Assembly (NCBI GenBank): GCA_026026165.1
Contig: JAPEUD010000045.1
Location: 62,001 to 126,000, forward strand
Source of the DNA: Sarea resinae
Lineage: Eukaryota
Direction: 5' to 3'
DNA: 64,000 nt
Of this stretch, positions 38,336 through 52,663 are shown in pieces. The notes under the pieces were generated by a model that saw only the letters and a list, made by a program, of their open reading frames with translations, was not told where the DNA came from and made no database searches. The position numbers and the translations under genes are program-made. Numbering within the stretch: position 1 is the first letter of the stretch; each line of letters begins with the position of its first letter.

Positions 38336-40990
38336 TCAGACCGTTCGGCCCCCACAATCAGGCAACTTGACGCCATCCTTGAGCGCCCTATCGACCGTAA
38401 AGAGCCCCCACTGGTCCTCCCAGCCTCGCCCCTTGGAATCAAACTGCACCTTCCAGGGCTCGTCAAAGGCCTCGAACCAGAAATACTGCGTGCCGTTGCT
38501 CAAGCTAGCGCAGACCCAGTCATCGAGGAAGACGTTGAGGCCGGCGACGCCGGCGACGCTGCCGGTGCTGGACGTGCAGGATGAGGATGTGGAGGCGCAG
38601 TTGGTGCCGCCGGCCGTCGGCCAGCCGACTTCGCTGATGATGGATTTCTTCTGCGTCGCTCCCGTCGAAGACGACGAGGATGCCAAAGATGCCGACGAGG
38701 CTTCAGCGTCGGCATCGGAAGAAGAAGAGGAAGAAGATTTGCTGGCGAGGATGACGTCGTGGTCCTGCCAGAACTGCCAGGTCCAACTGGCCGCCTGGGG
38801 GGCAGGCACACCGCCGAAAAAGGGATGGACGTTCGACATGACGACGTCGACCTTTTCCGCCAGATTCGCCGTCCAATCATCGCCCAAGTCGGATGTAGCC
38901 AGCGGGAGATCCATCTTCATATCCGTGAGGTTGCTTTTGACGCCCTCCAGTACAGATGCGAGCTGTGTCTCGGTCATGTCCTTGCGATACAGCACCTCGT
39001 TGCCCACAATGACGCCCGCAAAGTGATCGCTGCCATAATGGTTCAAGAGCGTATACATCTGGTCGAGTTGACGCGTGTTGGTGGTGGCGTTGTTTTCGAG
39101 CCAGACGCCTAGCCAGATCTTCATGGAGGAATTGAGGCCCAGGTGGTCGATGGCGGCCAGGACCATCTCTGTTTGATTGCAGTCGGTGCCGTAAAGGCGG
39201 ACGGCATTTGTGAGTTGGGAGAGAACAGCGACGTCTTTGGTGACATTATTCTGATTCGCGGGGTTGGTGAGGCAGGCTGGGTACTGGGCGTTCATGGGGG
39301 TGTAGTCCATGCCCGGAAAGACTTTGTGGAGGGCCGTGTTGTTCATCAGAGACTTAATGGCTGGGGAGTCTGCATTCAAATAGCCGTTGTTCGTGTTCTT
39401 GGTTGAAGATGATGCTTGGCCGGATGAGGAACTGCTTTTTCGAGATCCAAGAACGCCTCCTACTGCACCGCCTACAATGGCCGCAATAAGGACCACGGCA
39501 ACGAAGATTCCGACAAGCCATTTTAGCCTCTTGTTGCCCGAATTTTGGTGATTGAGCCATTCGCTCTTCTCCAAATTCCCATCGCTATTGTTATACCGAG
39601 GACTGTCCGTTCCTGGGACGAGACCATATTGGCCACTCTGGGTATTCCTCGCTCCACTCCCACTGACCAACCTTTTCACGCCGAAGATACCCCCTAGCGA
39701 GCCAGCCACTCCACTGGCTACGGCACCACCAGCCACATGGCCAGCCCCCAAGCTCTTGCTGCTGTCTGTTGCCTTCCCAAGACTCAATATTGATTTACGT
39801 TGCGAAGGCTCCTCCTGTAGCCCATCCTCTCCATCATCGGCAATGTCTTCTGGATCAATGCCGGAGCCCGCTTGACCGACTCGCGGATCCCACATAGATG
39901 TGTATCGAGCATATGGATGGTCTGCATAGTGGGCCGTGCCGTCGTTTATAAAATGCCCCTGTGAAGTGTCCGAATGTTGTGACATGGGATCGGATAGGCG
40001 ATTCGTCGGCGATGGGAGAGGGGGTGAGGCAAGCGCTGGAGCAGTAGCAGCCGCGCCTAGTGGCACATTCGACGAGTATGACTCTCTATTTCGCGATCCA
40101 TGAGATAGTGGCCGAGGAGCATATGGAGAGTCTGAGTCAATCGGATCAAATTCTCTTTCGGCAGGATCCATGTGCACATCGCTGGGAGTTCCGAATGCTC
40201 GTGTGGGATTTATGATTCCGATGTCACGCAGGGCTTGGAGGCCACTTTCGCGCTCGTTACGGTTGGCGACCCCTGTTGCGATCCCATTTATGCCACCACC
40301 CGCAGCGCCATCTCCAAGATTGTCCATCCCAGGAGTCGTAGTCGAAGCTGTCCGTGTGGATGTAGAATAACCAAGCTCCCTACCCCAATATCTACCGTCA
40401 TCATCGGGCTCTCTATCTTGGGGTAGGATCTTTGTATAGGTATGAGGAGGAGGCGGTGGTGCTTGTGAGTCGGTGGAGTAGAGAGGAACAGTAGGGAGAG
40501 GTTTTCTGGGTTGTGCTGGAATTGCTTTTGCCATTGTACTTGGAGCCCAGGTACTCGATGCAGGAGGCATATATGCTCTCCGGGGTTCCTGTTGGAAAGA
40601 CTCTTCGGGATGAGTGGGAGCATTATGATCCAAACCCGAGAAGCTGTTGTATCGGTCAAGTTGTTGTGCATCCGGCTCTTGTTTTCTGACAGGACCTCCA
40701 TACGTGGGGCCTCTCCCATTAGCTCTCGAATCCTCCTGCCGCCTGTACGATGCCTGTCGGTAGATGGACGGTTTAGAGCTGTACGTTGAAGAGAGCGGGC
40801 TGACAGCAGCCGTTCGTGGTGGTGGCGATGCATTCAAGGGCGGTGGTGTTATCTGGAGCCCTCGTGTGGGGCTCGGACTGTCTCGGTATCTTTGCGGATA
40901 CGGCTCATGCTCGTCGTCTTCAGCGTAGTGCTGTGGCGGTCCGTCATCGTGGTAGTCAAAGGAAAATGTTCGATGACTTGGCTGTGCCAT
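38336..40990 (-). CDS. btgC: GH17 endo-1,3-beta-glucanase/glucanosyltransferase, type II membrane protein (BtgC/Bgt3)
   Basis: 884-aa ORF with a long cytosolic N-terminus (TTPGMDNLG, EKSEWL), one TM helix and a GH17 domain (VRLYGTDC, VGNEVLYR, ISEVGWP, FEAFDEPWK). Confidence 0.92.
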   Translation of the reverse strand: MAQPSHRTFSFDYHDDGPPQHYAEDDEHEPYPQRYRDSPSPTRGLQITPPPLNASPPPRTAAVSPLSSTYSSKPSIYRQASYRRQEDSRANGRGPTYGGPVRKQEPDAQQLDRYNSFSGLDHNAPTHPEESFQQEPRRAYMPPASSTWAPSTMAKAIPAQPRKPLPTVPLYSTDSQAPPPPPHTYTKILPQDREPDDDGRYWGRELGYSTSTRTASTTTPGMDNLGDGAAGGGINGIATGVANRNERESGLQALRDIGIINPTRAFGTPSDVHMDPAEREFDPIDSDSPYAPRPLSHGSRNRESYSSNVPLGAAATAPALASPPLPSPTNRLSDPMSQHSDTSQGHFINDGTAHYADHPYARYTSMWDPRVGQAGSGIDPEDIADDGEDGLQEEPSQRKSILSLGKATDSSKSLGAGHVAGGAVASGVAGSLGGIFGVKRLVSGSGARNTQSGQYGLVPGTDSPRYNNSDGNLEKSEWLNHQNSGNKRLKWLVGIFVAVVLIAAIVGGAVGGVLGSRKSSSSSGQASSSTKNTNNGYLNADSPAIKSLMNNTALHKVFPGMDYTPMNAQYPACLTNPANQNNVTKDVAVLSQLTNAVRLYGTDCNQTEMVLAAIDHLGLNSSMKIWLGVWLENNATTNTRQLDQMYTLLNHYGSDHFAGVIVGNEVLYRKDMTETQLASVLEGVKSNLTDMKMDLPLATSDLGDDWTANLAEKVDVVMSNVHPFFGGVPAPQAASWTWQFWQDHDVILASKSSSSSSSDADAEASSASLASSSSSTGATQKKSIISEVGWPTAGGTNCASTSSSCTSSTGSVAGVAGLNVFLDDWVCASLSNGTQYFWFEAFDEPWKVQFDSKGRGWEDQWGLFTVDRALKDGVKLPDCGGRTV

Positions 40991-42185
40991 TATAGGCTTT
41001 GCATAGGCTTCTGGACCGGAGCCAAATAGAATGCTTCAGCACCTTCAGGCGTAATCATGAAGTTTCGAGTCTGAGAATATCAGCGACGTATCCAATTGCA
41101 TTAGCAGGGAGGATTTGTGGGTGGTTACTGAGGCAGTGATAACAGCAGTCAAGCACTCTCGTGAAGCAATGCAAGCAGAAAGTCTCTGAACAGGTTCCCT
41201 AGAAGGTAATCGTAATCGTAATCGTAATAGTGAGCCTCGTAATCGTAATCGTGAGGTTCAAATGTTCAAGTCATGACATAGCATTATAGAACGCAGCGAA
41301 AGAAGTCATGAGCCACAAATAATGCGGAAGAGAGAGACAGGGTTCAGGACGACGGAAGGACGAGACAATCGAATTTCTTTCTGCCGCCATGACAAACTAG
41401 AGGGCAATGTCTTTTCCCAGTTTCCATTGTTGGGCTTTTGCTCCTTTGGGCGTAGTGCGAGGTTCCCCCGCCAGCTGAGCCGGGCAAGCGAGCCATCCAC
41501 GCGCGATGTGATCACCCAAGCAACAATAGCTGCAGACGACGGATTACAGTAATAGAGTACGAAGTAGCTCCGCCATGATCCCACTCTTTCTATGAATAGC
41601 GGATGCCGCAGGGGCACGTGGCGAAACCAAACAATCACTAGAGCGAGCACTATGTACTCCCGCTATCCTAGTACAACATCAGGCAATCAAGTAGCGGAGT
41701 GAAAAACACCTTTTCTAAGCTATAGCAACCTATTGACATCGTGTGCTGATAGCATCCCATCCAGATCCCCGTTTCCAGTGCTCATCCATGCTTGTAAATG
41801 CACGCCACCCTTCACCTCCCTCTGCCTATCGGACAAGGAACATTTTGTCGTTGGATCCTTGAAAAGACATAGATTGACGGGCAAAGGGTCCGACGCGACA
41901 GGAAAGACAACCAAACCATGAGTACATAAAGAAAAAGGCATTACTACCCGGCTTCAGATCAGCAGAGCTCGAAGTGTATGAACAGTTGAAGATTCCATTT
42001 CCTTAGCAGTCACGACATATTCCAGCTCAACCATCAGATACAAAAGACCAACGCCCCAAGTGAGACGACGGCATACGCCTTGAGCTTTACGTGACATCGC
42101 CATAGAGTAGATCATACCAGCGGTAGTTGCTATCGATCGTTAGTGGAAGGAATCATCATCACGAGGCGAAGACCTACAAGAGCGT

Positions 42186-42776
42186 CTACAGTCTGGAGCC
42201 ATGAACGACCTTGTAGTCAACAGCCAACTCACGGCCGCCATCGTTGATGACGAGGACACGAACGCTTCCGCGGCCATTGGCAAAGGATTCGTTCAATCTA
42301 GTCCACAATCCACCTTGGTCAATAACGGGAAGACCCTGCTTGACATCACCAGTCTCGGTCATGGCAACAACGCGGCCGTCGTCACGGCAGTCGAGGACAC
42401 GGTATTGCTTGAACACAGGGCCGGACATGTTCTGGACGATGACCGAGGGAGCCGGGTTGGAAATGAAGCTCGACTCCTCGTGGAGTTGCTTGCTGAAGAG
42501 ATCGACACCCAAGTAGCGGTGTTGGCCGGTCTGAGCGGACGTGGTGATGCGAATGATCTGGCAGGGACGACCTTGGAGGATCAGGATATCGCCGATACGG
42601 ATGTGATGGCACGGAATGGTGATGGTGTTTGGCACCGCGCCGCCGCGGGCGGGCTTGGGAGCATCATCCACGTAGATATCATCGCGTTCTGTATGAGGAC
42701 GAAAGATGCGGTCAGCAGCACGATGGAGACCATGACGGAAGGAGTGGTAATGACCATCATCGTCGAAGTAACCCAT
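42186..42776 (-). CDS. hex-1: Woronin body major protein HEX-1 (canonical AUG-initiated form, 196 aa)
   Basis: MGYFDDDG start, eIF5A-like core IPCHHIRIGDILILQGRPCQ..HRYLGVDLF..GPVFKQYRVLD, and C-terminal PTS1 signal SRL. Confidence 0.97.
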   Translation of the reverse strand: MGYFDDDGHYHSFRHGLHRAADRIFRPHTERDDIYVDDAPKPARGGAVPNTITIPCHHIRIGDILILQGRPCQIIRITTSAQTGQHRYLGVDLFSKQLHEESSFISNPAPSVIVQNMSGPVFKQYRVLDCRDDGRVVAMTETGDVKQGLPVIDQGGLWTRLNESFANGRGSVRVLVINDGGRELAVDYKVVHGSRL

Positions 42777-43645
42777 CTTGATTTTACGGTCGGTCTTTCC
42801 GTCGACGGTAGTCTTGGTCTTTTCTACTTTGAATTGCTTGCGAGATTGGGATTCGCGGCGTGGAGGTTCTTCGGCGGCGTAGCTGGCTTGCGTACGCTGA
42901 CGATATTCGCGTTCGGGGACGGCGGTCTCTGAGCCGATGTCTGAGCCGGCGTAGTGAGTAGCAGGTCCGTGGACGATGGGGTACTCTCGGTCGTGTCGTC
43001 GACGAGGGAGGTCGACTTCGATGTGACTCTCAGAGTAGCGTCGATATGGTTCTTGGTAACTATGGTGGGACGATGAATATTAGTGATGAGGTTGGAGAGA
43101 CGAGGTGGAAGTGAGGCGGTTGTTACTGGGTCAACCAGGAAGAGCTAATTTTTCATTGGGCTGGCAATCGAAAAGGGATATGCAATGCGTTGTTCGTACA
43201 GTAGTGCACTAAATTTGGGCACAAAAGTTGTGAAGCAGGGCTGCTCGCAGACTTACCGCTCTTTGGCAAATTGGACCTCGGGATATCGTTCTTGGTGACG
43301 GTAACGGTCAGACTCTTCGTAGACGGTAAAGTCTTCGCGACGCGAGTCTGGTCGGCGGAAGTCTTCTCGACGGCGTGGACGAGGGCGTTCTTCTTCGTAG
43401 ACGTTGACGCTCTCTTGCTCGTACCGAGATCGGTCTCGGTCCTTGCGTGGCGGGAGAGAGGCTTCGAAAGAAGAGTAGCTGGTTTCCTGAGCGTGACCTT
43501 CCCGTCCGACGCGCGAAGCCCGAGAAGGTAGGTCGATTTCAGCTTCCTCTACCTGGACTTGAGTTGCCTCGGTGGTGACAGCGTCGCTCCGGTACGAGGA
43601 CGGGAAGACACTGAAGGGGATCGGGACTCGGGCGTCAAAGTCCAG
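42777..43645 (-). CDS. hex-1: Putative in-frame N-terminal extension of HEX-1 (224 aa, candidate CUG start)
   Basis: Stop-free exons 43645-43257 and 43059-42777 are joined by a phase-2 intron at 43060-43256 (GTAAGT..CTAAT..TAG). No ATG occurs in any frame. Start context is GTCACC-CTG-G. Confidence 0.65.
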
Positions 43646-46600
43646 GGTGACTGGATTTCGGGCGTCCTTTCTCGAATGCCTTTCGAATCGTTATGGAAAC
43701 AATTCAAAAGGAAGACAAGAAAGAACTCTTGCTTCTAAATGAAGAGAGAAAGGTGAGGTAGAAAGCGAACGGGAAGTTCGTGACTACTCCAGTCTTTCAA
43801 TCAAACAAGTAGCAAGTAGCTCTTGGGTGGTGGAAGGGAGAGGTTGCCTGCGACGACTTCCGATTGACGATGACTACTCAATGTTCGATGCAATATGATG
43901 ATGCAAGGTGATTGAATGATTGATGTTGATGATGATGTTGATGGTTCTGCTGATGAGGTAGCGAGGAATGGAAGAAAAGAAGATGGAGGAAGAACGGGCG
44001 TGGAGGTAGGGTGGAGGGGAAGGGGAGTGAGCGGGTGGTTGGGGAAGGGAATGGCTATGGGTGCGCGATACGGGGCGGCGGGCGAGCTCAGTGCTCATCT
44101 CAATCAACAACACACTACAGCGTGAGGTGGTACAGGGGGTGGCAGGTAGACGACACCTGGGCTACAGGGCTGCCGAGGGGACCGAGGACCTTTCAGCTGT
44201 GCGCAGAGTACCAGAACCAGAGTCCTTTCTCACCTTCTGGGCTTACTTCAATACGAGAGGTCCGTGTACCTAATAGTAGTACTCTGAGTACTATGTAGAG
44301 AGGGCATCAACAATTGCTGCTGAGTGAAGAGCCCTGGAGGTACCTTACTCAATGAAGTTCGATAATGATCGGAGCTGCTTTGTGCCAATTTCCGGGGTGC
44401 GCGCGTTGTGTTGTCCTTTGCTGTTTGTTTTGGCAGCCGAGCCAATCATCGTCTCACGTTTAGCTTGCAGCTTCTTTCCCGCCAGTCTCCGTCTACCACA
44501 ACTTCCTTCTCACACTACAGAGTACTACATACTACTGCGCAGTTTGTAGTCTGTCCCAGCCTTCCATCGCGCATCCATCGCATCGCATCGCATCTTACAG
44601 CGCCCCCCCCCCCCCCCCCCCAAAAGGTACTACTCTACTGTGGGTGCACTACTCAGAGCTACTACCACCGGGCCTGCGGATCTTCTTTTCACATGTCTAA
44701 GGTACTAGTAGGTAGCAAGCACTCACTCATTCGTCTTGTTTGGCGTCAGGGATCTGATAGCTTCCTGCGATGTATCTCATCGGGTCGATGTGGATCAGCA
44801 GCCTCTTCAACGAACTTTCTGCTGCGATATCTTCACATCATTGCAAGCTACTTGCTTCTCTGAGCTGTTTCTTCGGTGGTCCAGAACGATGAGATTCCTA
44901 TTGAAGTCGCCCAGCCTGGAGCCTTCCAAAATGCACGGCAGCTCATTGCTCGGGCCTACTATAATATCGCGCACCTGGTCTTCGCAGCGTGGACGTAGCT
45001 GACTGGCCTGAAGGGCTTGTTTCGGGCACAAGTAGAAGCAGTTGTAGAGTATCGAGTGGTAAAGTGTACAAAGACTCCATGGGGAGAGTGTCATCAGATA
45101 TCCATTGTTGGAAAACCAACCGGTCCCACAATTTCTCTATTCCGTATCGCGGCAGACAGCATCAATCGATCGGTCGTTGTCTGTCTCCAGCTGTACGAGT
45201 GCTCTGAGTGAATAATGGAAAGATGTACGCGTACCAATTCGGCTTTGAAGACGCATCTTTAATTGGACGACGTCGAAACAGCCGTACACCGTGGCTGATT
45301 TTGCATTGATCCAATCCTGCCAGACCTGTTCCAAATGAGAGCTCTCTCGCTTACGTCGTCCAGGCAACGCCCAGTGCTCGATGTGTTTGGGCCTCTTCAG
45401 GGGAATTGCCCAAATGAGACAAGACAGCGGAATTTCCCTGACTAGCACTGCTCATAGTACGTTACTACTGCTGAAGCAACGCGACTACTTGTCGCAGATC
45501 AAACCGCTAGGCTATTCCAATCAGAAAATATGTCCCAGGCAAGGAACACGTAAAGAGAGGAAAAAGACTTCCAGTCTTAGAAAACAATCCTGTGTGCATA
45601 ACAGCAGCGCTTCTACAATGCGTCAATAGGGTCTTGTATGTAGGGTGAGTACATCATGATTGTAATCTAACGAGCCTTGCGCTGAATTTGCACAGAAATC
45701 AAATCCAAGGAAATTGTGACCATACGCTCAACTTGGTAATCGATTTCGTATGCACAGAGTGTGGCACTATTAAGAAGGGCTCGGAGCTTGTCCAGATGAC
45801 TGTATTTCTACCCGGCTGATATTGTGTTGAGTTCTATAGCCATCCATTTGCTGCTGGCTTTCGCCTTTTTCAGGAAGAGTCCAAGCTCACTTCGAAAGCC
45901 GCAGTATATCACCATCCGTGGAAAATTGCCCGCCTGCTTGAGTCAATCATGCTCATTACGCCCGTCATTTCAGCAGATGGTACTCGCTCTGAGGCAGTGT
46001 GGGTCTTCGATGCCTCGGGCCCGATCTTATTTCCTCTCGATGTCGAGACGTGGTCGAGGTTTTCCGCTTGGCTACCTCACGCTTCAAATGGATCTCGTGG
46101 TTTTCGGGGCGGATTCTGGGCTCCTCTTTTGAAATATTCCTTTTCATACGCTTTGGCTTCGCCCGTTCATTATACAAGGAGCAATACGTCTGGTGCGATC
46201 AGATCACGTCGATCTATTTTTGTCACGTTTGATCTTGCATTGCTGACACAAGGCGCAAGAGTCCAACCTTGTTTTGTCTCATTGTCTTCTTTCTGGTATT
46301 GAAGCAGCTGGTGACAATCACGAAGATGTTTGAGTGTCCCAGTGTCGGCGATTCAATAGTATACTGGATAGCCATACCTGGCTTAGTCAGCGCTTTCCAC
46401 GGCCCTGGAGTACTCGGGCTTCGTGCTCGATGAACTCCAGATTAACACCTCCACTATCTTGTCCTCACACCGAGTGACCGCACTGACTCTCTCGGTTAGC
46501 GTTTAATTGGACTCCGCCGCACAATGATGATTCCCGAGTGCTCCCCTGGGCATTGCTTGAACCAAGCACCGCGCCCGCGCATCATGGGCGTCACTAAGTC

Positions 46601-49600
46601 ATCATGAAACGTAGTGCTCCGCAGAAACGTTGGGTTTCGGTGTCGCTCCTAACGAGGAGAAGACCTCGAGCACTTGCAATCAGCAAACGGACTGAGAACT
46701 ACAGATGGCTCATGCGAACTTGGGGAGCACGAATCGGAGGGAGACGCCTTTGAAACCGAGAGGTATCTCACCTCAAATTCTCCTACCGCCAGTCATCTAT
46801 GGAGTATCTGACAGGCATCATTATGATGGCGCAGCTGATACTGGACGTACTGATAATAGAGGAAAGCTGTGCACCGATGCTGCTGGTATACAAGGCGCGG
46901 AGACTGAGACAAGATAGCTGGAATTGGGCTCTGCACGCGAAGGTCTTGTAATTCCAGGAGTGCCAATGTTGGCTTCTGGCTGTATGTCCACCTTTTCTAG
47001 CACGAGGAGTGGCGAGATTTATTTAAAATCATTGCCTAAATACCTTGTCCGGCGTTTTCAGATCCTCTTCACACCCATCCGCTTCCTCGTCTCCCTGTAT
47101 CCCTCCTTCGTCTATGGTAAGGCTTGCAAGATCTGGAGCGGCAACAGTGGGTACGCGGTCGCCAGTAGGTTGCTACAAACGTATCAGGTATCTTGTACGC
47201 TGAGCTCGGAGGTTTCTCGATTGCGTTTGAGGGAATCTGAGGCTGGGGTCCAGTGACGGGAAGTCTACCCTTACTACTCCGTAGGTGGCCTTGCTCGTCG
47301 GCATCTTTGTTGCCTACCGACAACGAAATCAGGGGGTATATTTTTGGCAAGCGGACTCTTTCTGTTTGGATGTGAGCATTCTTCGCCGATCTTCTCGTTG
47401 CATATCACGCGCTGTCAATTCACGCAGGGCCACCTAATGCAAGCATCAACTACTGGCCTTCCATTATCAGTAACGCCTTTCCCGGCTTCGGTTTCACGAG
47501 GGTCTTCCAAGCAGCATTGAACTATATCGTCGACACGGTTAATGCGCTATAGGGCCATCGTTGTAGCGTCCAACACCTTTCCGCGCTTTATGCTTGCAGG
47601 CGCGGTTTCTCTTCTAATTGGCCCCATGTACCACAACATCGTCGTAGACTGGGGGAGCGTGATCTTCGATGCGTGGTGGTTCTACTGGTGCTGGTGCCAT
47701 TCGTGGTCTTCCTTTAGGGGCGAAGCATCAGGGCCCAGAGCCAGTGGATTAGGGGAGTCTCCAAGGCTCATAAATGACTGGGTGCAACGAATATATCGGC
47801 CATATTTGGGCCGCATTTAGGGATGAATACATCGATATCGCATAGCACAGACACACACGTATACTTACATACAATCCGGAGTCTCGTGTCGGCGGTCAGA
47901 AAGAAACTGTATAGGGCCATCTACGACACCGACTCAAGCACATGCAACGAGTACTACCTTCGTAAGATGCCTCTCATGATGACGCGAATGAAATACAGGG
48001 CTTGATTGGTACTGTCGATGGTGCTACCAGACCCGGCCTTGATCAGTCGAGGATCAAGTATAGAGCTTCTAGATTCGGCATCGACGGCAGACAAGACGAT
48101 TGCATCCATGCATCCAGGTCTGGATCCTGAGACTGCTGCTAGTCATCCGTTATCAGCTCGGAGAGATCTTACTGATGGCTGGTCTCGTTGGCCTTGTATT
48201 GAAGTTGTTGCTACATATTATAGCCAATGGAGATAAATGAATCGGCATTCAATCAATCATGGGAACTGGGGAAGCATTGTTCTTTGCCAACGGGCATGCC
48301 TGATAATTTACGTTGCTGTACTACATATGGTGATCATCGAGCAACAAAGCTGAGATGGCTTGGGTAGGGAGGTAGGTATCATTGATGCTTCGCATCACCT
48401 CAATCATCTCGGTCTGCCGCATCGGTGCTTAGCAGCGGCTCGTCTCCGCGAGATGGGTCAATGATGACGACAGTGTCTTCGGCTCGTCCCGAAAGATTGG
48501 AAGGCCTCGGACCCTTGAGCGCCCTAGGTAGATGGTACCAGATGATCTACTGAAGTAGGCACGGATTTGATAGCTTGATCCGCCTTACGATGGAAATATC
48601 TCCAGCGACAGCGAATGAGTTGGTGTAATTCGTAGATGGGTTCGATCACTGGCCTCGTGATGCACGACAGATCCATCATTGCCTCGTTCGGTCAGAGCTC
48701 TGAGACGAGTGGGGAGTCTGGAGAGTCTGGAGTTGGGGCGACCACAGGGACGTCCCTTGTATCGATTGTCGAACATTCCTGGTGTGTTGAGGGCCACGTT
48801 GCCCCCGAGGATCAGTGGCAAGATTCACGTACGCAGTACTCCGAGCACTCCCTCGTCCCTCCGAGAAGCACTCGTTCCTTCGGGTTGCCATGGTCGTTGT
48901 TGATTTATCGCCAAAGGGTTCTCTCTCCTTCACGCGTACGAATACTTCCAGTACGCGACTGCAGGCCATTTGCGAAGGTGAGGCAAGCAGCCCAGATCGA
49001 TCCATCATCCTGATTGGGATTGATGCAGTCCACCCTCGCTACTGCACTCACTGCACTCAGTGCACTCACCACCCTCACGACCTACTCCGGAGTACTTCAT
49101 ACACGCACAGGCGCCGAGAGTACTTTGTACACTCCCCTACCCTTACAGCGCAGTGGAAGAGCGGAGAAGCGCCCGTCCCTAACCCTGTTCTTCCCTGCTC
49201 TTGCCCAGTCCGCTGGGCTTCTGTGGCCCGGTCCTTGGCTGAGATCCAGGCGTATTCGTACTATCCATCCTTACCGACCCTCAAATACACCGCAACACCG
49301 CCGCTCCCGCTGCGGTGCCGCTCCTCCCCTCCACTTCACTCCAGTCTACCGTCTACTTGCAGCCCCGTCACAAAACGACTCCCGACCTCACTCTGCGCTC
49401 TCCTGTACGGGTACTTTTGTCTCTCGCTCTTCCGTTGCCACCCCCGGCATCTGCCGCGGCCAGGGATTCTGACCTTCCGCGCTGGTCGAGACCGAACAGG
49501 AAAGCGGAAAGGTGATTGTGGGGTTCAGGCATCGATCAGGCCGCTGCGGACCTCCTTGGCTCACGACCATCCTCGCCGACAGCCAACACACGAACACAGT

Positions 49601-49918
49601 CCTTTCACTTTTCACCAAAACAAACAGACCGACTCAGTCCGAGAATATATATTACCATATCTGTAAGTGGCTGCTCCAGCACTCGGTTGTACTGCATGTT
49701 ACTACCGTTACTGTTGAATCTCAAGAACTGCGGTCCCCGATCGATCGCTCTCTCTCGTCATGGAGGCTGACACTTGTACCAAGTACCTACCTGTCAGCTT
49801 GAGCACGTGTGCCCCACCTACATCACTGCATCCCAATCCTCGACCTCTGCAGCAAATCATAACCCGACATCTACAAATTTCTTGTGGTCAAGGCCCGCCC
49901 AAAGGGTCGAATTCTGCG

Positions 49919-52663
49919 ATGGATTCAAGATTTCATCGCCCTTCCTCGCCAGGCGGCCGTCGACTGGCGAATCCCATGAGAGTGACGACCGGCTCTGTGG
50001 GCTACAATCCACCTTACGATCCCTACTTTAGCACGTCACCAAGGACCAGTAGAGAATTGATCACGTCTCCTCGATCGAGCGGGGAGCGTTTGCTAGAGCC
50101 ACCCCGAGACGTACCCAGAAACTACAAAGACGACAATCTACTCACGCCTAGGGTCCGTGGCGAATACGCTCCGAGACCGCGACGAGCAACGCTTGACAAT
50201 AGAGATGCAAGGAGACCCGCCAATATACTTGCACCAAGCTCGCCCAATCGAGCACGACCTATAATTCACGGTGCCAGCGGCAACGAGCGACCATCGAGTC
50301 CTCTTGCTGGCTACTATAACTCGAGCGACGAAGGCGACCAATATTATGTGACGCCAGCTACCTCTGGACATCGGAAATCGCACCGCAGAATCTACAGTGT
50401 GGATAACGACCAGGTTGGTCGTGTACAGAAGCCGGTGGAGAGACCAAGAGAGACCAAAGTTGCGAGGACCTCCGACGTAGGACCCGTCAGTAGAGCCTTC
50501 GCTCCAAACGGGGTTCCTGCGAGACTACCAGATAGTGACGAGGATGCATATGGCTATTCATACATGGATTCCCGTGAGCCCACTTACGGAGACCTTGCTC
50601 GACCGAGGAAACGGCCCGAGAGCTACGAAGGCGGCAGGTTAGATAGACCTTTAAGTATGACCGGTTTGGAAGACTATCTTCCTCGCGTGTCAAATCCCCG
50701 TGAGCTCGGCCCTCCTCCCTCCACACGCGGTTTCGAGAAGCTAGGCCGATCATCGAGCGTCAGGCAAGCTCCACGACAGCCATACCCCGACGAACTCTCT
50801 TTGCCAGGATTTCCGACAGCAAGGGAAGCTGATCTCTTCGAGGCACCGGCTTCTCGGGTTCCAAGCCGCCGGCCAGTTTCTCTGCACCAGGAACCTCCTG
50901 ATGATGCGTATCCGCCTTATCAACCATCTTTCCAAGACTACGATGATGGTGGCAGCAGATATCGACGTCCTCATCCTTATGATAGTGACATCGAAAGACG
51001 AGGCTTCGGTATTCGAACAGAGAGTCTAGACCGACAACTACCTCCAGATGAGAGAGTCGATCGGGCGATTCTTCCACCTCCACCACCTCGCGACCCAAGA
51101 CCGCCAGAAACAGTTGAAAGGCGTGATATAGAGGACGAATATCAAGAGCAAAAGAGGCGCGTAAGAGAAGCTAGAGAACTTGAGATTCGTGAGCGTGAGG
51201 AGGAACTTCGTGAGCAGCAACGCCTTCGAGAATATCGAGACAGGCAGGTCTTCGACGGAAAGGTCATTGAGGATGGCGAGCGAAACAGGGATCGCCCAAG
51301 GAGAGAGCCCAACGACAGAGAGATACCGGGAGCGGAACGTCCCCGTCGCGGGGATCGCCCCGAAGATCGGGAGCGCACCTCAAGTGACGAAGAGCGTCGA
51401 GAGCGCCATGAGCGACGCAAGGAACGACGAGAGAGAGAGGCACTGGAACGCGACGCAATAGAAAGAGATGGCCGGGAGAGAATTGCAAGGGAGCAGCTCT
51501 CTTCTGATCGGGATCGTTCTCGAGACCCTAGAGAGAAGATCAGGGATGGAGATATCGCCGCGCGCCCGCGAGACCCTAGAGAAAAGATCAGAGATGGAGA
51601 TATCGACTCACGCTCTCGAGATCCTAGAGATAAAATCAGGGAAGGAGATATTGACGTGCGCACTCGGGACCCCAGAGAAAAAGTTCGGGATGGCGGAATC
51701 GATGTGCGCCCTCGGGATCCTAGAGAGAAGGTCAGGGATGCAGATATCGACTCACGCTCTCGAGACCCTAGAGAGAAGGTCAGGGATGTAGATATCGACT
51801 CGCGCTCTCGAGATCCTAGAGAGAAGGCCAGGGATGGAGCCATCGACCGTGATGGCGATTTGCGGCTAAGAGAACGTGAGCGGGAGTCGCGTCATCGAGA
51901 TCGCGAAGAGGAATCTCCGACGGAAGATGAGCGGCGCTCTCGTGAAGCCCGGGATCGCCCTCTTCGCTCTGATAAGCCGATCCCCTTCGAGTCCCAGGAT
52001 ACAGGGAGAGAAGACAGAGAGAGCAAAGTCCGTGTGGCATCTCCTCCTTCGGTGGAGAAGCAGTCCGAGGTGCCTATCAAGGGTATACTCAAAGATCCAA
52101 AGCCAAAGTTTCCCGAAGATCCTGCTCCTATACGCGAGGGTGTCGCGCCTCTCAAAGAGGCTGGCAAGAAGGGCATACCACCGGGTGCTCGATGGACCAA
52201 GATCGATAGAAAATTAGTGAACCCAGAGGCTTTAGAAGCAGGGCACGAGCGATTTGAAGAAAGGCCCGACTATGTCATTGTGCTTCGGGTCTTGACAAAG
52301 GATGAGATCAACGCATACGCAGTGAAAACACATGAGATTAGAGGTAAGAGCCGAAGATGACATACATCGTACGGACGCTGGCTCAATGTGGCTTCAGAAG
52401 AACGATACGAGAGGGATCAGCGAGAGCGGTCTACATATAGACCCGATGAACGAGAAATGAAAGCGATTGAGGCCCCGGAAATGGCGGAGCCTCGAGCTAT
52501 TGAGGCGCCGCCAAGTAAGAGCACGCGGTACACTGTGCCAGCCGAAGTTCCTCAGCGCGCCGAGCCAGCCCCCGTCGATGGCCGACTGAGGGAGAACCCC
52601 GAGATGCCTGGAACCTACGTCGGTTACCGGAGGAATCCCCCGCCACCACGGCAGCAGCGATAG
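49919..52663 (+). CDS. Disordered Arg/Asp/Glu mixed-charge protein with a conserved C-terminal domain (DUF8035-like)
   Basis: Long ORF from MDSRFHRP. C-terminal GIPPGARWTKIDRKLVNPEAL..FEERPDYVIVLRVL block. Intron 52344-52397 joins the final exon. Confidence 0.8.
51518..51850 (+). repeat. Coding minisatellite, 7 x 48 nt (16-aa unit SRDPREKIRDGDIDSR)
   Basis: Seven imperfect tandem units read directly from the sequence. Confidence 0.9.

What the first reader, a model, noticed from the sequence alone, without database searches (positions are those of the whole stretch)
42186..44095. Hidden non-AUG (CUG)-initiated long isoform of the Woronin body protein HEX-1
SEEN: the HEX-1 reading frame stays open for 283 nt upstream of its AUG (42776), up to an acceptor at 43060. 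A canonical intron (43256-43060) joins it in the correct phase (CG|T) to another stop-free exon: LDFDARVPIPFSVFPSSYRSD...YPEVQFAKER|YQEPYRR...DRKIK-MGYFDDD. An in-frame TAA 15 codons upstream of the LDF Leu closes the frame, and there is no in-frame ATG. The spliced minus strand from 44095 to the AUG (~1.1 kb) has no ATG in ANY frame, against ~17 expected at 1/64; the only one lies inside the intron. The LDF Leu is a CTG (43645-43643) in strong context, GTCACC-CTG-G. KNOWN: CUG is among the most efficient near-cognate starts in Neurospora; HEX-1 is usually described as a ~19-25 kDa PTS1 crystal protein; from memory, some Aspergillus hexA annotations include an LDFDARVPIPFSVFPS-containing extension (unverified). 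INFERENCE: leaky scanning makes a minor ~420-aa isoform with a 224-aa disordered, R/E/D-rich tail alongside the major 196-aa form. It could co-assemble into, cap or modulate the Woronin body lattice.
Basis: partly seen in the sequence, partly recalled or inferred. Interest (0 to 1): 0.88.

Follow-up and report, generated by a model that had tools for sequence, protein, structure and literature searches.

The report
Hidden CUG-started long HexA isoform
The gene for the protein that plugs fungal cell-to-cell pores (the Woronin body protein HEX-1/HexA) also encodes a conserved version about 224 residues longer that can only begin at a CUG codon, a form that genome annotation and the literature have overlooked or dismissed as error.

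Summary
On the minus strand the HEX-1/HexA frame is open upstream of its AUG (42776). A metatranscriptome contig confirms the 197-nt intron (43256-43060). That contig runs unspliced through the CUG (43645) and the in-frame TAA (43693) to at least 43869.

The spliced 1122 nt before the AUG hold no ATG.

In 80 of 80 related loci, fetched with a pattern that excludes this codon, the Leu codon is CTG. A is at -3 and G at +4 in 51 of 51 distinct contexts. CTG makes up only 9% of the other Leu codons.

An in-frame stop lies 4-47 codons upstream in 78 of 80 loci, with no intervening ATG.

In 26 non-redundant cDNA-like contigs, ATG occurs twice in 28.4 kb before the HEX AUG and 444 times in 22.8 kb after it.

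The extension is under purifying selection and is predicted to be disordered. A conserved hairpin just upstream matches the orphan 'hexA motif' of Li and Breaker.

Seven literature searches found no description of a non-AUG HexA.

Translation from the CUG and the function of the long form remain untested. Best reading: CUG/AUG dual initiation by leaky scanning.

The parts
43646..44095 (-). AUG-free 5' leader upstream of the CUG. The transcription start lies somewhere between about 43869 and 44095.
   Evidence: There is no ATG on the minus strand between 44096 and 43156. RNA contigs cover the leader up to 43869 (depth 45) and from 43850 to 44000 (depth 2.1). In 20 distinct genomic relatives the nearest upstream ATG lies 191-586 nt before the CUG.
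43664..43726 (-). Conserved RNA hairpin, inferred to be the 'hexA motif' of Li and Breaker 2017. The in-frame TAA (43693-43691) sits in its apical loop. Its 3' end is 18 nt before the CUG.
   Evidence: A 111-nt fold gives -40.2 kcal/mol with z -5.6. The RNAalifold consensus has 14 core pairs. 98.9% of cells are paired, against 40-67% when the partners are slid, and 3 pairs show compensatory change. The paper's description matches.
43643..43645 (-). Proposed CUG initiation codon, in the context GUCACC-CUG-G (A at -3, G at +4).
   Evidence: CTG in 80 of 80 related loci and 51 of 51 distinct contexts. C at -4 in 45 of 46, A at -3 in 46 of 46 and G at +4 in 46 of 46. CTG is 9.3% of the other Leu codons, and three invariant core Leu residues vary freely among synonymous codons.
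43257..43645 (-). Extension exon 1: (M/L)DFDARVPIPFSVFPSSYRSDA...YPEVQFAKE plus the first two bases of an Arg codon.
   Evidence: Translation. 217 longer homologues at E<=1e-3. RNA contig collinear across it.
43060..43256 (-). Intron within the extension, 197 nt, GTAAGT..ATAG. It holds the only ATG of the region (43156).
   Evidence: The joint that skips 43060-43256 is present in the RNA contig. Boundaries.
42777..43059 (-). Extension exon 2 part (YQEPYRR...DRKIK), in frame with the HEX AUG.
   Evidence: Covered by the RNA contig.
42186..42776 (-). Canonical HEX-1/HexA coding sequence, MGYFDDD...HGSRL, 196 aa, with the stop at 42188-42186. The AUG at 42776 is the first AUG of the spliced mRNA.
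   Evidence: Pfam PF21485 and PF01287. PDB Woronin body major protein 8qlw E 5e-91 and 1khi E 7e-78. The three best-matching chains (8qlw, 8qnu, 8qlu) align from their residue 1, which in the one alignment printed (8qlw) is MGYY.
42689..42754 (-). In-frame 66-nt alternative intron just after MGYFDDD. It removes GHYHSFRHGLHRAADRIFRPHT.
   Evidence: The joint is present in the RNA contig. GT..AG boundaries and the resulting 174/398-aa forms are. An alternatively spliced N-terminal intron is described for other fungi (PMC7762394, passages).
42130..42177 (-). 48-nt intron in the 3' UTR, 8 nt after the stop codon.
   Evidence: Joint in the RNA contig. GTAGGT..GATAG boundaries.

Best explanation
One hexA/hex-1 mRNA carries two start codons in the same frame. 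Its 5' leader (at least 224 nt, probably about 350-450 nt) and the 672 nt that encode the extension contain no AUG in any frame.

Scanning 40S subunits first meet an invariant CUG in near-optimal context (C-4, A-3, G+4). A minority initiate there and make a 420-aa (48.5 kDa) HexA. This long form has a 224-residue, R/E/S/P-rich, intrinsically disordered N-terminal extension that begins with the near-invariant motif (M)DFDARVPIPFSVFPSSYRSDA.

The majority scan on, unhindered because no AUG intervenes, to the AUG of MGYFDDD and make the classical 196-aa crystal-forming protein. Both forms end in the peroxisomal signal SRL. A 66-nt in-frame alternative intron would give each form a second variant; only the spliced variant was seen in RNA here.

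A conserved hairpin (the orphan 'hexA motif') ends 18-29 nt upstream of the CUG and probably tunes this choice.

Shown here: the transcript structure, the conservation of the CUG and its context, the bounding stops, the AUG depletion, and purifying selection on the extension.

Inferred: that ribosomes start at the CUG, that leaky scanning rather than a second promoter yields the short form, and what the hairpin and the long isoform do.
For: Transcript evidence
1. A 1914-nt metatranscriptome contig (8 mismatches) has the introns 43060-43256, 42689-42754 and 42130-42177 removed. It is collinear from 43257 to 43869, through the CUG, the TAA and the acceptor that the database model uses.

Start codon
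2. Loci were fetched with the peptide pattern VPIPFS[VI]FP and a query that begins after the Leu, so the fetch was blind to that codon. CTG is found in 80 of 80 loci, with A at -3 and G at +4 in 51 of 51 distinct contexts. In 46 aligned sequences C-4 is 45 of 46, A-3 46 of 46 and A-2 43 of 46.
3. Control: CTG is 37 of 397 (9.3%) other Leu codons in 20 non-redundant ORFs, and three invariant Leu residues of the HEX core use CTC, CTT, TTG and, for two of the three, CTG.
4. An in-frame stop lies 4-47 codons upstream in 78 of 80 loci (2 are too short to tell). None of the 80 has an in-frame ATG between the stop or contig end and the CTG. In 26 of 80 the stop is only 4-7 codons upstream, for example TGA AAG GTC GTC AAC CTG.
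5. The conserved block upstream of the CUG is read in different frames, or holds stops, in different lineages. Conservation at the protein level therefore starts at the CUG.

AUG depletion
6. In 28 cDNA-like contigs (26 non-redundant) the CTG frame runs into MGYY. ATG occurs 2 times in 28,389 nt before the HEX AUG (0.07 per kb, Markov expectation 108, observed/expected 0.02; the next-lowest trinucleotide is at 0.46). It occurs 444 times in 22,785 nt after it (19.5 per kb).
7. In 117 annotated orthologues the extensions total 26,355 residues with 2 Met, both in one protein.

Coding signal
8. Median dN/dS is 0.39 in the extension (281 pairs) against 0.15 in the core (126 pairs).
9. Annotated N-termini upstream of the conserved block are mutually unrelated, and some models are marked partial and begin there.
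Against: - No ribosome, peptide or western evidence was available, so initiation at the CUG is an inference.
- The window alone is weak: the Markov expectation is only 4.1 ATG.
- The Met count in annotated proteins is open to selection bias. A model that started at an internal Met would lack the motif and would be missed.
- dS is near saturation (about 1.5) and the low-complexity alignment is uncertain.
- The loci are not phylogenetically independent.
- The RNA is an assembled metatranscriptome contig, not reads from this isolate.
- In the window the CUG lies in a small predicted stem, so part of its conservation could be structural.
- In two other species the intron inside the extension also lacks ATG (0 in 178 nt and 0 in 229 nt). 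Composition may therefore contribute to the depletion.
- A separate shorter transcript for the short form cannot be excluded with contigs.
Confidence: 0.8

Rival explanations
1. The extension is translated from an ordinary AUG in an upstream exon that is spliced onto an acceptor just before 'HSRKDA'. This is how database gene models draw it. The Sarea resinae model P0003 uses ATG 44449 and a roughly 660-nt intron.
For: Many database models have such N-termini. Li and Breaker noted a sequence resembling a 3' splice site on the right arm of the hairpin.
Against: The RNA contig is collinear across that acceptor and keeps the in-frame TAA. In 27 of the 28 cDNA-like contigs of other fungi the leader holds no ATG at all; L069 has two, 211 and 219 nt upstream of the CUG, and all 28 carry an in-frame stop before the CUG. 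The modelled N-terminal peptides share no similarity with each other. cDNA L014 on genomic L013 and L033 on L038 are collinear upstream of the CUG.
Confidence: 0.03
2. The region upstream of the AUG is only a long, structured 5' UTR. Its conservation is at the RNA level (the hexA motif and its tail) and no long protein is made.
For: There is a conserved hairpin, and synonymous sites are unusually conserved in the first codons: GAC TTT GAC is nearly invariant. The literature treats the extensions as annotation error (PMC7762394).
Against: An open frame of 216-359 codons is kept in 28 of 28 cDNA-like contigs despite length variation. dN/dS is 0.39. Synonymous variation occurs at most codons of the motif while the peptide stays fixed. 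Li and Breaker themselves saw a three-base periodicity. 217 homologues align at the protein level.
Confidence: 0.04
3. The CUG-initiated long form is real, but the abundant short form comes mainly from a second, shorter transcript that starts inside the extension, not from leaky scanning of the long mRNA.
For: Contigs cannot show transcript starts or relative levels. hex-1 is very highly expressed in model fungi (recalled, not from any call), which could fit a dedicated promoter.
Against: AUG avoidance in all three frames over the whole extension and leader, 2 in 28.4 kb, is expected only if ribosomes must scan through it to reach the HEX AUG. A short transcript would remove that constraint on the leader and on the upstream part of the extension.
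Confidence: 0.12
4. Initiation occurs at another near-cognate codon, such as the in-frame AAG or AGG upstream or the AUC of PIPF downstream, and the CUG is conserved only as a Leu codon or as part of a stem.
For: In the window AGG (43681) and AAG (43669) are in frame between the TAA and the CUG. The CUG pairs with CCAG in the predicted fold.
Against: AAG and AGG are the weakest near-cognates (general knowledge, recalled). The upstream codons differ in frame and identity between lineages. In the group of loci whose in-frame stop lies 4-7 codons upstream, the sequences have no CCAG partner yet keep CTG. The Kozak positions around the CTG are invariant.
Confidence: 0.04

Closest known systems
Non-AUG (near-cognate) N-terminal extension of Neurospora crassa cpc-1 and its Pezizomycotina homologues (Ivanov et al. 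2017, PMC5487733; passages read)
   Same: It is a conserved in-frame extension upstream of the annotated AUG. It has conserved near-cognate codons with A at -3 and G at +4, is under purifying selection (their dN/dS 0.285), and is included in some automated annotations without a resolved start.
   Different: cpc-1 has several candidate codons and two AUG uORFs in the leader. Here there is a single invariant CUG, a stop directly upstream, and complete AUG depletion of the leader and extension. hex-1, Woronin and NCU08332 do not occur in that paper's main text.
Classical HEX-1/HexA short isoforms made by alternative splicing of the N-terminal intron (described in PMC7762394, passages; Leal et al. 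2009 seen only as a reference)
   Same: Same gene and same MGYYDD start. The same kind of alternatively spliced intron directly after it was seen here as the 66-nt joint.
   Different: Those isoforms differ by about 20 residues and both start at the AUG. The form described here adds 224 residues upstream and needs a non-AUG start.
'hexA motif' candidate structured RNA (Li and Breaker 2017, PMC5640933; passages and supplementary Table S1 read)
   Same: A long hairpin with small internal loops in the 5' UTR or 'intron' of hexA genes, followed by a conserved tail with three-base periodicity. It was found in Eurotiomycetes, Leotiomycetes and a Dothideomycete. The hairpin found here has the same place and shape.
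   Different: The authors proposed control of splicing and left the function open. They named no start codon. Their figure and alignment were not visible to me and Rfam 15 has no model that hits here, so the identity is inferred from the description.
[quoted passage not shown] 2020; seen only in reference lists)
   Same: A fungal peroxisome-related protein with an isoform from a non-AUG start.
   Different: By its title, the non-AUG start there creates the peroxisomal isoform. Here both isoforms carry the same C-terminal PTS1. The paper itself was not read.
Mammalian CUG-initiated long proteoforms (c-Myc, FGF2, PTEN-L; recalled, not from a call) and structure-assisted non-AUG initiation 'START' (PMC11165317; search listing and start of abstract only)
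   Same: An upstream CUG in good context gives a minor extended proteoform by leaky scanning. RNA structure near the codon can influence its use.
   Different: As I recall it (the paper was not read), the structure in START lies downstream of the codon. Here the conserved hairpin lies upstream, ending 21-29 nt before the CUG.

Membership tests
HEX-1/HexA Woronin body major protein | eIF5A-like two-domain fold and sequence | tested here: met
   PF21485 (27.9 bits, cut-off 27.1) and PF01287 (25.0 bits, cut-off 24.2) on P0002. PDB 8qlw E 5e-91, 8qlu (hexA) 2e-78, 1khi (Hex1) 7e-78; eIF5A itself scores only 1e-12. The AF2 core has pLDDT above 90.
HEX-1/HexA Woronin body major protein | N-terminal MGYYDD hexapeptide at the AUG start | tested here: met
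   MGYFDDD at 42776, with Y4 replaced by F. M, G, Y and D are invariant columns in 67 orthologues.
HEX-1/HexA Woronin body major protein | C-terminal PTS1 tripeptide (SRL) | tested here: met
   The protein ends ...VVHGSRL*. G, S, R and L are at least 90% conserved.
HEX-1/HexA Woronin body major protein | Self-assembly into a crystalline core and the conserved histidine needed for it | not testable with these tools
   The TIPCHHIR block is conserved. Which histidine is the crystal contact is recalled from the literature and mentioned in PMC7762394. Assembly itself needs experiment.
Non-AUG-initiated N-terminally extended proteoform with leaky scanning | In-frame open extension bounded by a stop, with no in-frame AUG | tested here: met
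   In the window, TAA 43693 to CTG 43645 holds no ATG. 78 of 80 loci have the stop and 0 of 80 have an in-frame ATG.
Non-AUG-initiated N-terminally extended proteoform with leaky scanning | Conserved near-cognate codon in a good Kozak context | tested here: met
   CTG in 80 of 80 loci. A-3 and G+4 in 46 of 46, C-4 in 45 of 46. Synonymous control.
Non-AUG-initiated N-terminally extended proteoform with leaky scanning | Purifying selection on the extension in the main frame | tested here: met
   Median dN/dS 0.39, maximum 0.70, over 281 pairs (dS near saturation). Codon tables show synonymous change under a fixed peptide.
Non-AUG-initiated N-terminally extended proteoform with leaky scanning | No AUG in any frame between the two starts | tested here: met
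   0 in the window's 672 nt between the two starts. 0 between the CUG and the HEX AUG in 28 of 28 cDNA-like contigs.
Non-AUG-initiated N-terminally extended proteoform with leaky scanning | Direct detection of initiation or of the product (ribosome profiling, mass spectrometry, western, mutagenesis) | not testable with these tools
   No such data were reachable. A full-text search for the tryptic peptide found 0 papers, and supplements are not searched.
hexA motif RNA (Li and Breaker 2017) | Long hairpin with two small internal loops or bulges upstream of hexA, followed by a conserved tail with codon-like periodicity | tested here: met
   Two 7-bp helices are separated by a 4 x 4-nt internal loop in 41 and 45 of 46 sequences. 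98.9% of cells are paired and 3 pairs show compensatory change. The tail is the coding start.
hexA motif RNA (Li and Breaker 2017) | Match to the published consensus or alignment | not testable with these tools
   The figure is not held. No Rfam family hits 41500-45500 at E<=1 apart from two chance snoRNA-like matches.

The most novel reading that the evidence does not exclude
The orphan hexA-motif hairpin is a dedicated cis-element that sets, and perhaps regulates, how many scanning ribosomes stop at the CUG. For example, it could refold behind the 40S subunit just as the CUG reaches the P site, or it could bind a factor.

On this reading most Pezizomycotina other than Sordariomycetes make a fixed minor share of a 45-60 kDa HexA. 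Its disordered, motif-bearing arm cannot fit the crystal lattice. It would instead decorate, nucleate or cap the Woronin body core and link it to the sorting and tethering machinery or to the septal pore.

This would be an upstream-structure-assisted non-AUG start that controls the build of an organelle.
Probability: 0.3. Interest if true: 0.85.

Novelty: new member of a known kind. Interest (0 to 1): 0.78.

Why it matters
HEX-1/HexA is the textbook self-assembling organelle core protein. In the three best-matching solved chains (8qlw, 8qnu, 8qlu) the match begins at chain residue 1, aligned to the AUG-started form; the one alignment printed (8qlw) starts MGYY.

Over half of 460 database Hex1 proteins are 405-534 aa long, and this is unexplained (PMC7559983). 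Others attribute the extensions to faulty annotation (PMC7762394).

The evidence here indicates that the extension is real, ancient and universally started at a CUG. That has several consequences:
- It would correct hundreds of gene models, whose invented AUG exons are not supported.
- It gives a function to an orphan conserved RNA motif.
- It predicts an unstudied 45-60 kDa HexA species in Aspergillus nidulans, A. fumigatus, A. niger, A. oryzae, Botrytis and Sclerotinia. These species carry the motif and have genetics ready for testing.
- N-terminal tagging at the AUG, or cDNA constructs starting at the AUG, would have removed or split the long form in past work.

It is also one of the cleanest comparative cases of CUG/AUG dual initiation: 2 ATG in 28 kb.

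Tried and rejected
- Rfam scan of 41500-45500 at E<=1: only two sub-threshold snoRNA-like chance hits and no hexA family.
- The window's own genome is not held, so paralogues and genome-wide ATG statistics could not be examined.
- Earlier findings of this scan: none for these words.
- RNA run X1 gave no cover upstream of 44000, which includes the database model's first exon (44347-44449).
- Only one RNA run held the stretch, as assembled contigs. Transcript start, strand and isoform ratio could therefore not be read.
- Introns as an internal control for ATG depletion were inconclusive. The window's intron has 1 ATG in 197 nt. The introns of L013 and L038, with boundaries approximate from BLAST, have 0 in 178 nt and 0 in 229 nt.
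- AF2 on 67 aligned orthologues: the extension has pLDDT below 50 almost throughout, and the N-terminal motif does not dock confidently on the HEX core. This suggests no intramolecular contact and no fold to search. No fold search or complex prediction was run.
- A small stem that encloses the CUG in the window is not kept in the loci whose in-frame stop lies 4-7 codons upstream. It is not proposed as a conserved part.
- The 'TCGAA-AGGCA-TTCGA' mini-hairpin was considered by eye and rejected in favour of the long-range pairing supported.
- Whether Sordariomycetes, Neurospora included, have the extension was not settled. No name among the 120 listed hits (of 217) is, by my recollection of their taxonomy, a Sordariomycete. 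None is among the 18 hexA-motif species although several were in that study's database. However, a 392-aa Metarhizium Hex1 is reported and I could not examine it.
- Literature: searches found no description of a non-AUG or CUG-initiated HexA. Subscription-only papers (for example Beck and Ebel 2013) and supplementary proteomics tables were not searchable.

Full report
**What is in the window**

On the minus strand lies a HEX-1/HexA gene. The canonical product (MGYFDDD...HGSRL, 196 aa, AUG at 42776, stop at 42188-42186) matches the eIF5A-like Pfam families PF21485 and PF01287. It also matches solved Woronin body major proteins: 8qlw E 5e-91 and 1khi E 7e-78. The three best-matching chains (8qlw, 8qnu, 8qlu) are matched from their first residue, and the one alignment printed (8qlw) begins MGYY.

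The nearest database protein is a 465-aa model from a Sarea resinae metagenome-assembled genome, 99% identical over the query. Sarea belongs to the Sareomycetes within the Pezizomycotina.

**Check of the observation**

- The frame is open for 283 nt upstream of the AUG, as far as an AG acceptor at 43060.
- A GTAAGT...AG intron of 197 nt (43256-43060) joins this in phase (CG|T) to a second stop-free exon that is open from 43690.
- TAA lies at 43693-43691, 16 codons before a CTG at 43645-43643, in the context GTCACC-CTG-G.
- Minus-strand ATGs occur at 44098, at 43156 (inside the intron) and then at 42776. The spliced 1122 nt hold none.
- Against composition this is 0 observed versus 11.4 expected from shuffles (0 of 2000 shuffles had none), but only 4.1 expected from a first-order Markov estimate. 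The window alone is therefore suggestive, not decisive.

**Transcript evidence**

One public RNA run (coded X1, a metatranscriptome kept as assembled contigs) holds half of the sampled words.

When laid on 41800-44700, a 1914-nt contig (depth 45, 8 mismatches) shows three GT..AG joints on the minus strand:
- the predicted 197-nt intron (43060-43256);
- a 66-nt in-frame intron just after MGYFDDD (42689-42754);
- a 48-nt intron in the 3' UTR (42130-42177).

The contig is otherwise collinear from 43257 to its end at 43869. That stretch covers the CUG, the in-frame TAA and the acceptor near 43677 that the database model uses. A second contig (depth 2.1) covers 43850-44000.

The mRNA therefore carries the extension in frame with HEX. 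It starts at least 224 nt upstream of the CUG, and in this contig it has no upstream AUG exon spliced in. Being a contig, it shows neither the true 5' end nor isoform ratios.

**Relatives: proteins**

The exon-1 peptide finds 217 longer proteins at E<=1e-3, of which the best 120 are listed. Of those 120, 115 carry the HEX Pfam domain PF21485. By their source names they come from many lichen-forming and other ascomycete genera, including Cenococcum, Botryosphaeria, Talaromyces, Aspergillus, Penicillium, Coccidioides, Histoplasma, Trichophyton, Cadophora, Lachnellula, Geoglossum and Xylona.

Their N-termini upstream of the conserved block have nothing in common. Several models are 'partial' and simply begin at ...RHSRK or FERHSR. 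This is what gene predictors produce when forced to find an ATG.

In 117 proteins where both the LDFDARVP motif and MGYY can be located, the extensions total 26,355 residues and contain 2 Met, both in one model without Pfam hits. Models that began at an internal Met would escape this count, so the DNA test below matters more.

**Relatives: DNA, blind to the codon**

I built a query that starts at the Asp after the Leu. The scan of metagenome contigs used the peptide pattern VPIPFS[VI]FP. It returned 159 relatives, of which the best 80 were kept.

- The codon before the Asp is CTG in 80 of 80 loci, which represent 51 distinct 96-nt contexts.
- A is at -3 and G at +4 in all 51 contexts.
- In an alignment of the window plus 45 of the 51 contexts, G-6 is 46 of 46, C-4 45 of 46, A-3 46 of 46 and A-2 43 of 46. 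Six contexts were left out: three had fewer than 110 nt upstream and three were near-duplicates.
- As a control, CTG is 37 of 397 (9.3%) of all other Leu codons in 20 non-redundant ORFs. Three invariant Leu residues of the HEX core use CTC, CTT, TTG and, for two of the three, CTG.
- An in-frame stop lies 4-47 codons upstream in 78 of 80 loci (the other two are too short). No locus has an in-frame ATG between that stop and the CTG.
- In 26 of 80 loci the stop is only 4-7 codons away, for example TGA AAG GTC GTC AAC CTG. This leaves essentially no other place to start.
- The conserved block just upstream (TTCGAAAGGCATTCGAGAA) is read as FERHSRK in some lineages. In others it falls in other frames or holds stops. 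Its conservation is therefore in the RNA, and protein-level conservation starts at the CUG.

**AUG depletion in relatives**

In 28 loci the CTG frame runs without interruption into MGYY. Two of these, compared with genomic loci, are spliced copies that are collinear upstream of the CUG.

In the 26 non-redundant ones, the leader plus extension (28,389 nt) holds 2 ATG, both about 215 nt upstream of the CUG in one contig (L069). That is 0.07 per kb. The Markov expectation is 108, and the observed/expected ratio of 0.02 is far below the next-lowest trinucleotide, TAA at 0.46. The sequence after the HEX AUG in the same contigs (22,785 nt) holds 444 ATG, or 19.5 per kb.

In 20 distinct genomic loci the nearest upstream ATG lies 191-586 nt before the CUG. 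In the window the distance is 451 nt.

Avoidance of AUG in all three frames over a coding stretch is what leaky scanning to a downstream AUG demands.

**Coding signal and nature of the extension**

Median pairwise dN/dS is 0.39 in the extension (281 pairs, maximum 0.70) and 0.15 in the core (126 pairs). dS is near saturation, so these values are rough.

The first 21 codons encode a nearly fixed peptide while their third positions vary.

The window's extension is 224 aa, rich in R (35), E (30), S (21) and P (17), and has no M, C or W.

AlphaFold2 with 67 aligned orthologues gives pLDDT below 50 almost throughout the extension and above 90 in the HEX core. The extension is best seen as a disordered arm with short conserved motifs: the N-terminal 22 residues, SRVGREG, PEVE..RERY.EP and D.TEREYR.R.

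**The hairpin**

RNAalifold on the 46 sequences pairs CTTCTTG with CGAGAAG and CCTTTCG with CGAAAGG, around a variable apical loop.
- On these 14 pairs 98.9% of cells are standard pairs, against 40-67% when the partners are slid. Three pairs show compensatory change, in 20 cells. Sequence conservation is high, so covariation is modest.
- In the window the hairpin spans 43726-43664. A 111-nt fold gives -40.2 kcal/mol with z -5.6, and the TAA sits in the apical loop.
- The conserved helix ends 21-29 nt before the CUG in 46 of 46 sequences.

This fits the description of the 'hexA motif' of Li and Breaker: a long hairpin with two small internal loops in 5' UTRs or 'introns' of hexA genes, followed by a conserved tail whose least conserved positions fall on every third base. 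The function was left open and a role in splicing was suggested (PMC5640933, passages).

Their species list has 18 species, including Aspergillus fumigatus, A. nidulans, A. niger and A. oryzae. It has no Sordariomycete, although several were in their database (supplementary Table S1).

I infer that their 'tail' is the start of the CUG-initiated coding sequence. I could not see their figure, and Rfam has no model for the motif.

**How it most likely works**

One mRNA is used with two in-frame starts. A minority of scanning 40S subunits initiate at the CUG, which is well placed but inherently weak. The rest continue through about 670 AUG-free nucleotides to the HEX AUG.

This yields a minor 420-aa form (398 aa after the 66-nt splice) beside the major 196-aa (174-aa) form. 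Both end in SRL.

That the codon is never ATG in any of the 80 loci suggests selection for a low, fixed share.

What the hairpin does is inference. It might refold behind the 40S subunit as the CUG enters the P site, bind a factor, or throttle scanning. The role of the long form is also inference. A 224-residue disordered arm is hard to reconcile with a close-packed crystal, so a surface, nucleating, capping or linking role is plausible.

**What is known**

Seven full-text searches found no paper that links HexA/HEX-1 to non-AUG or CUG initiation or that describes the long isoform.
- The four papers holding both 'Woronin' and 'non-AUG' do so in unrelated places (the fourth was seen by listing only).
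- Tang et al. 2020 recorded that most database Hex1 proteins are 405-534 aa long and left this unexplained (PMC7559983, passages).
- Vangalis et al. 2020 attributed the 'hypervariable N-terminal extensions' to inaccurate annotation (PMC7762394, passages).
- The closest precedent is the near-cognate-initiated extension of cpc-1 in Pezizomycotina (PMC5487733, passages).
- Subscription-only papers and proteomics supplements could not be searched.

**Verdict**

It still lacks any direct evidence of translation.

It is a new member of a known kind, namely a CUG/AUG dual-initiation proteoform. Two things add interest: it concerns a textbook organelle protein, and it explains an orphan RNA motif.

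Noticed in passing
window 42689-42754 (-): A 66-nt in-frame GT..AG intron directly after MGYFDDD is removed in the RNA contig, deleting GHYHSFRHGLHRAADRIFRPHT. The retained form is the one in database models and is well conserved (H, S, R and G invariant in 67 orthologues). Both forms are therefore probably made, as reported for other fungi.
   Followed up: partly
window 42130-42177 (-): A 48-nt intron in the 3' UTR begins 8 nt after the stop codon and is spliced in the RNA contig. An intron this close to the stop would not normally trigger nonsense-mediated decay. Its purpose is unknown.
   Followed up: no
window 43677-44449 (-): The public Sarea resinae protein model (P0003) starts at ATG 44449 and splices about 660 nt to an acceptor before HSRKDA. 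The RNA contig is collinear across that acceptor. The modelled first 34 residues have no counterpart in any other species' model.
   Followed up: yes
window 43632-43663 (-): A small predicted stem (CCAG/CUGG flanked by AAA/UUU) encloses the CUG in the window. GAC TTT GAC after the CUG is almost invariant at synonymous sites (TTT in 25 of 27), although TTC is the usual choice elsewhere in the motif. This hints at an RNA-level constraint just downstream of the start.
   Followed up: partly
window 43727-43760 (-) and alignment A2 columns 20-50: A pyrimidine-rich tract (CTTC/CCTT repeats) precedes the hairpin in nearly all relatives. It was not analysed.
   Followed up: no
L069:35-45: This is the only cDNA-like contig with ATGs in the leader: two, at 211 and 219 nt upstream of the CUG. 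It could be a lineage-specific uORF or an assembly artefact.
   Followed up: no
L013:3351-3528 and L038:3279-3507: The intron inside the extension holds no ATG in these two other species, whereas the window's intron has one. This could be chance, composition, or tolerance of intron retention.
   Followed up: partly
window 38336-41035 (-): The neighbouring long open frame (899 aa from stop to stop) carries a glycosyl hydrolase family 17 domain (E 4.6e-16). Open frames at 44369-44863, 45820-46302, 48791-49666 and 49718-52360 (+) gave no Pfam hit.
   Followed up: partly
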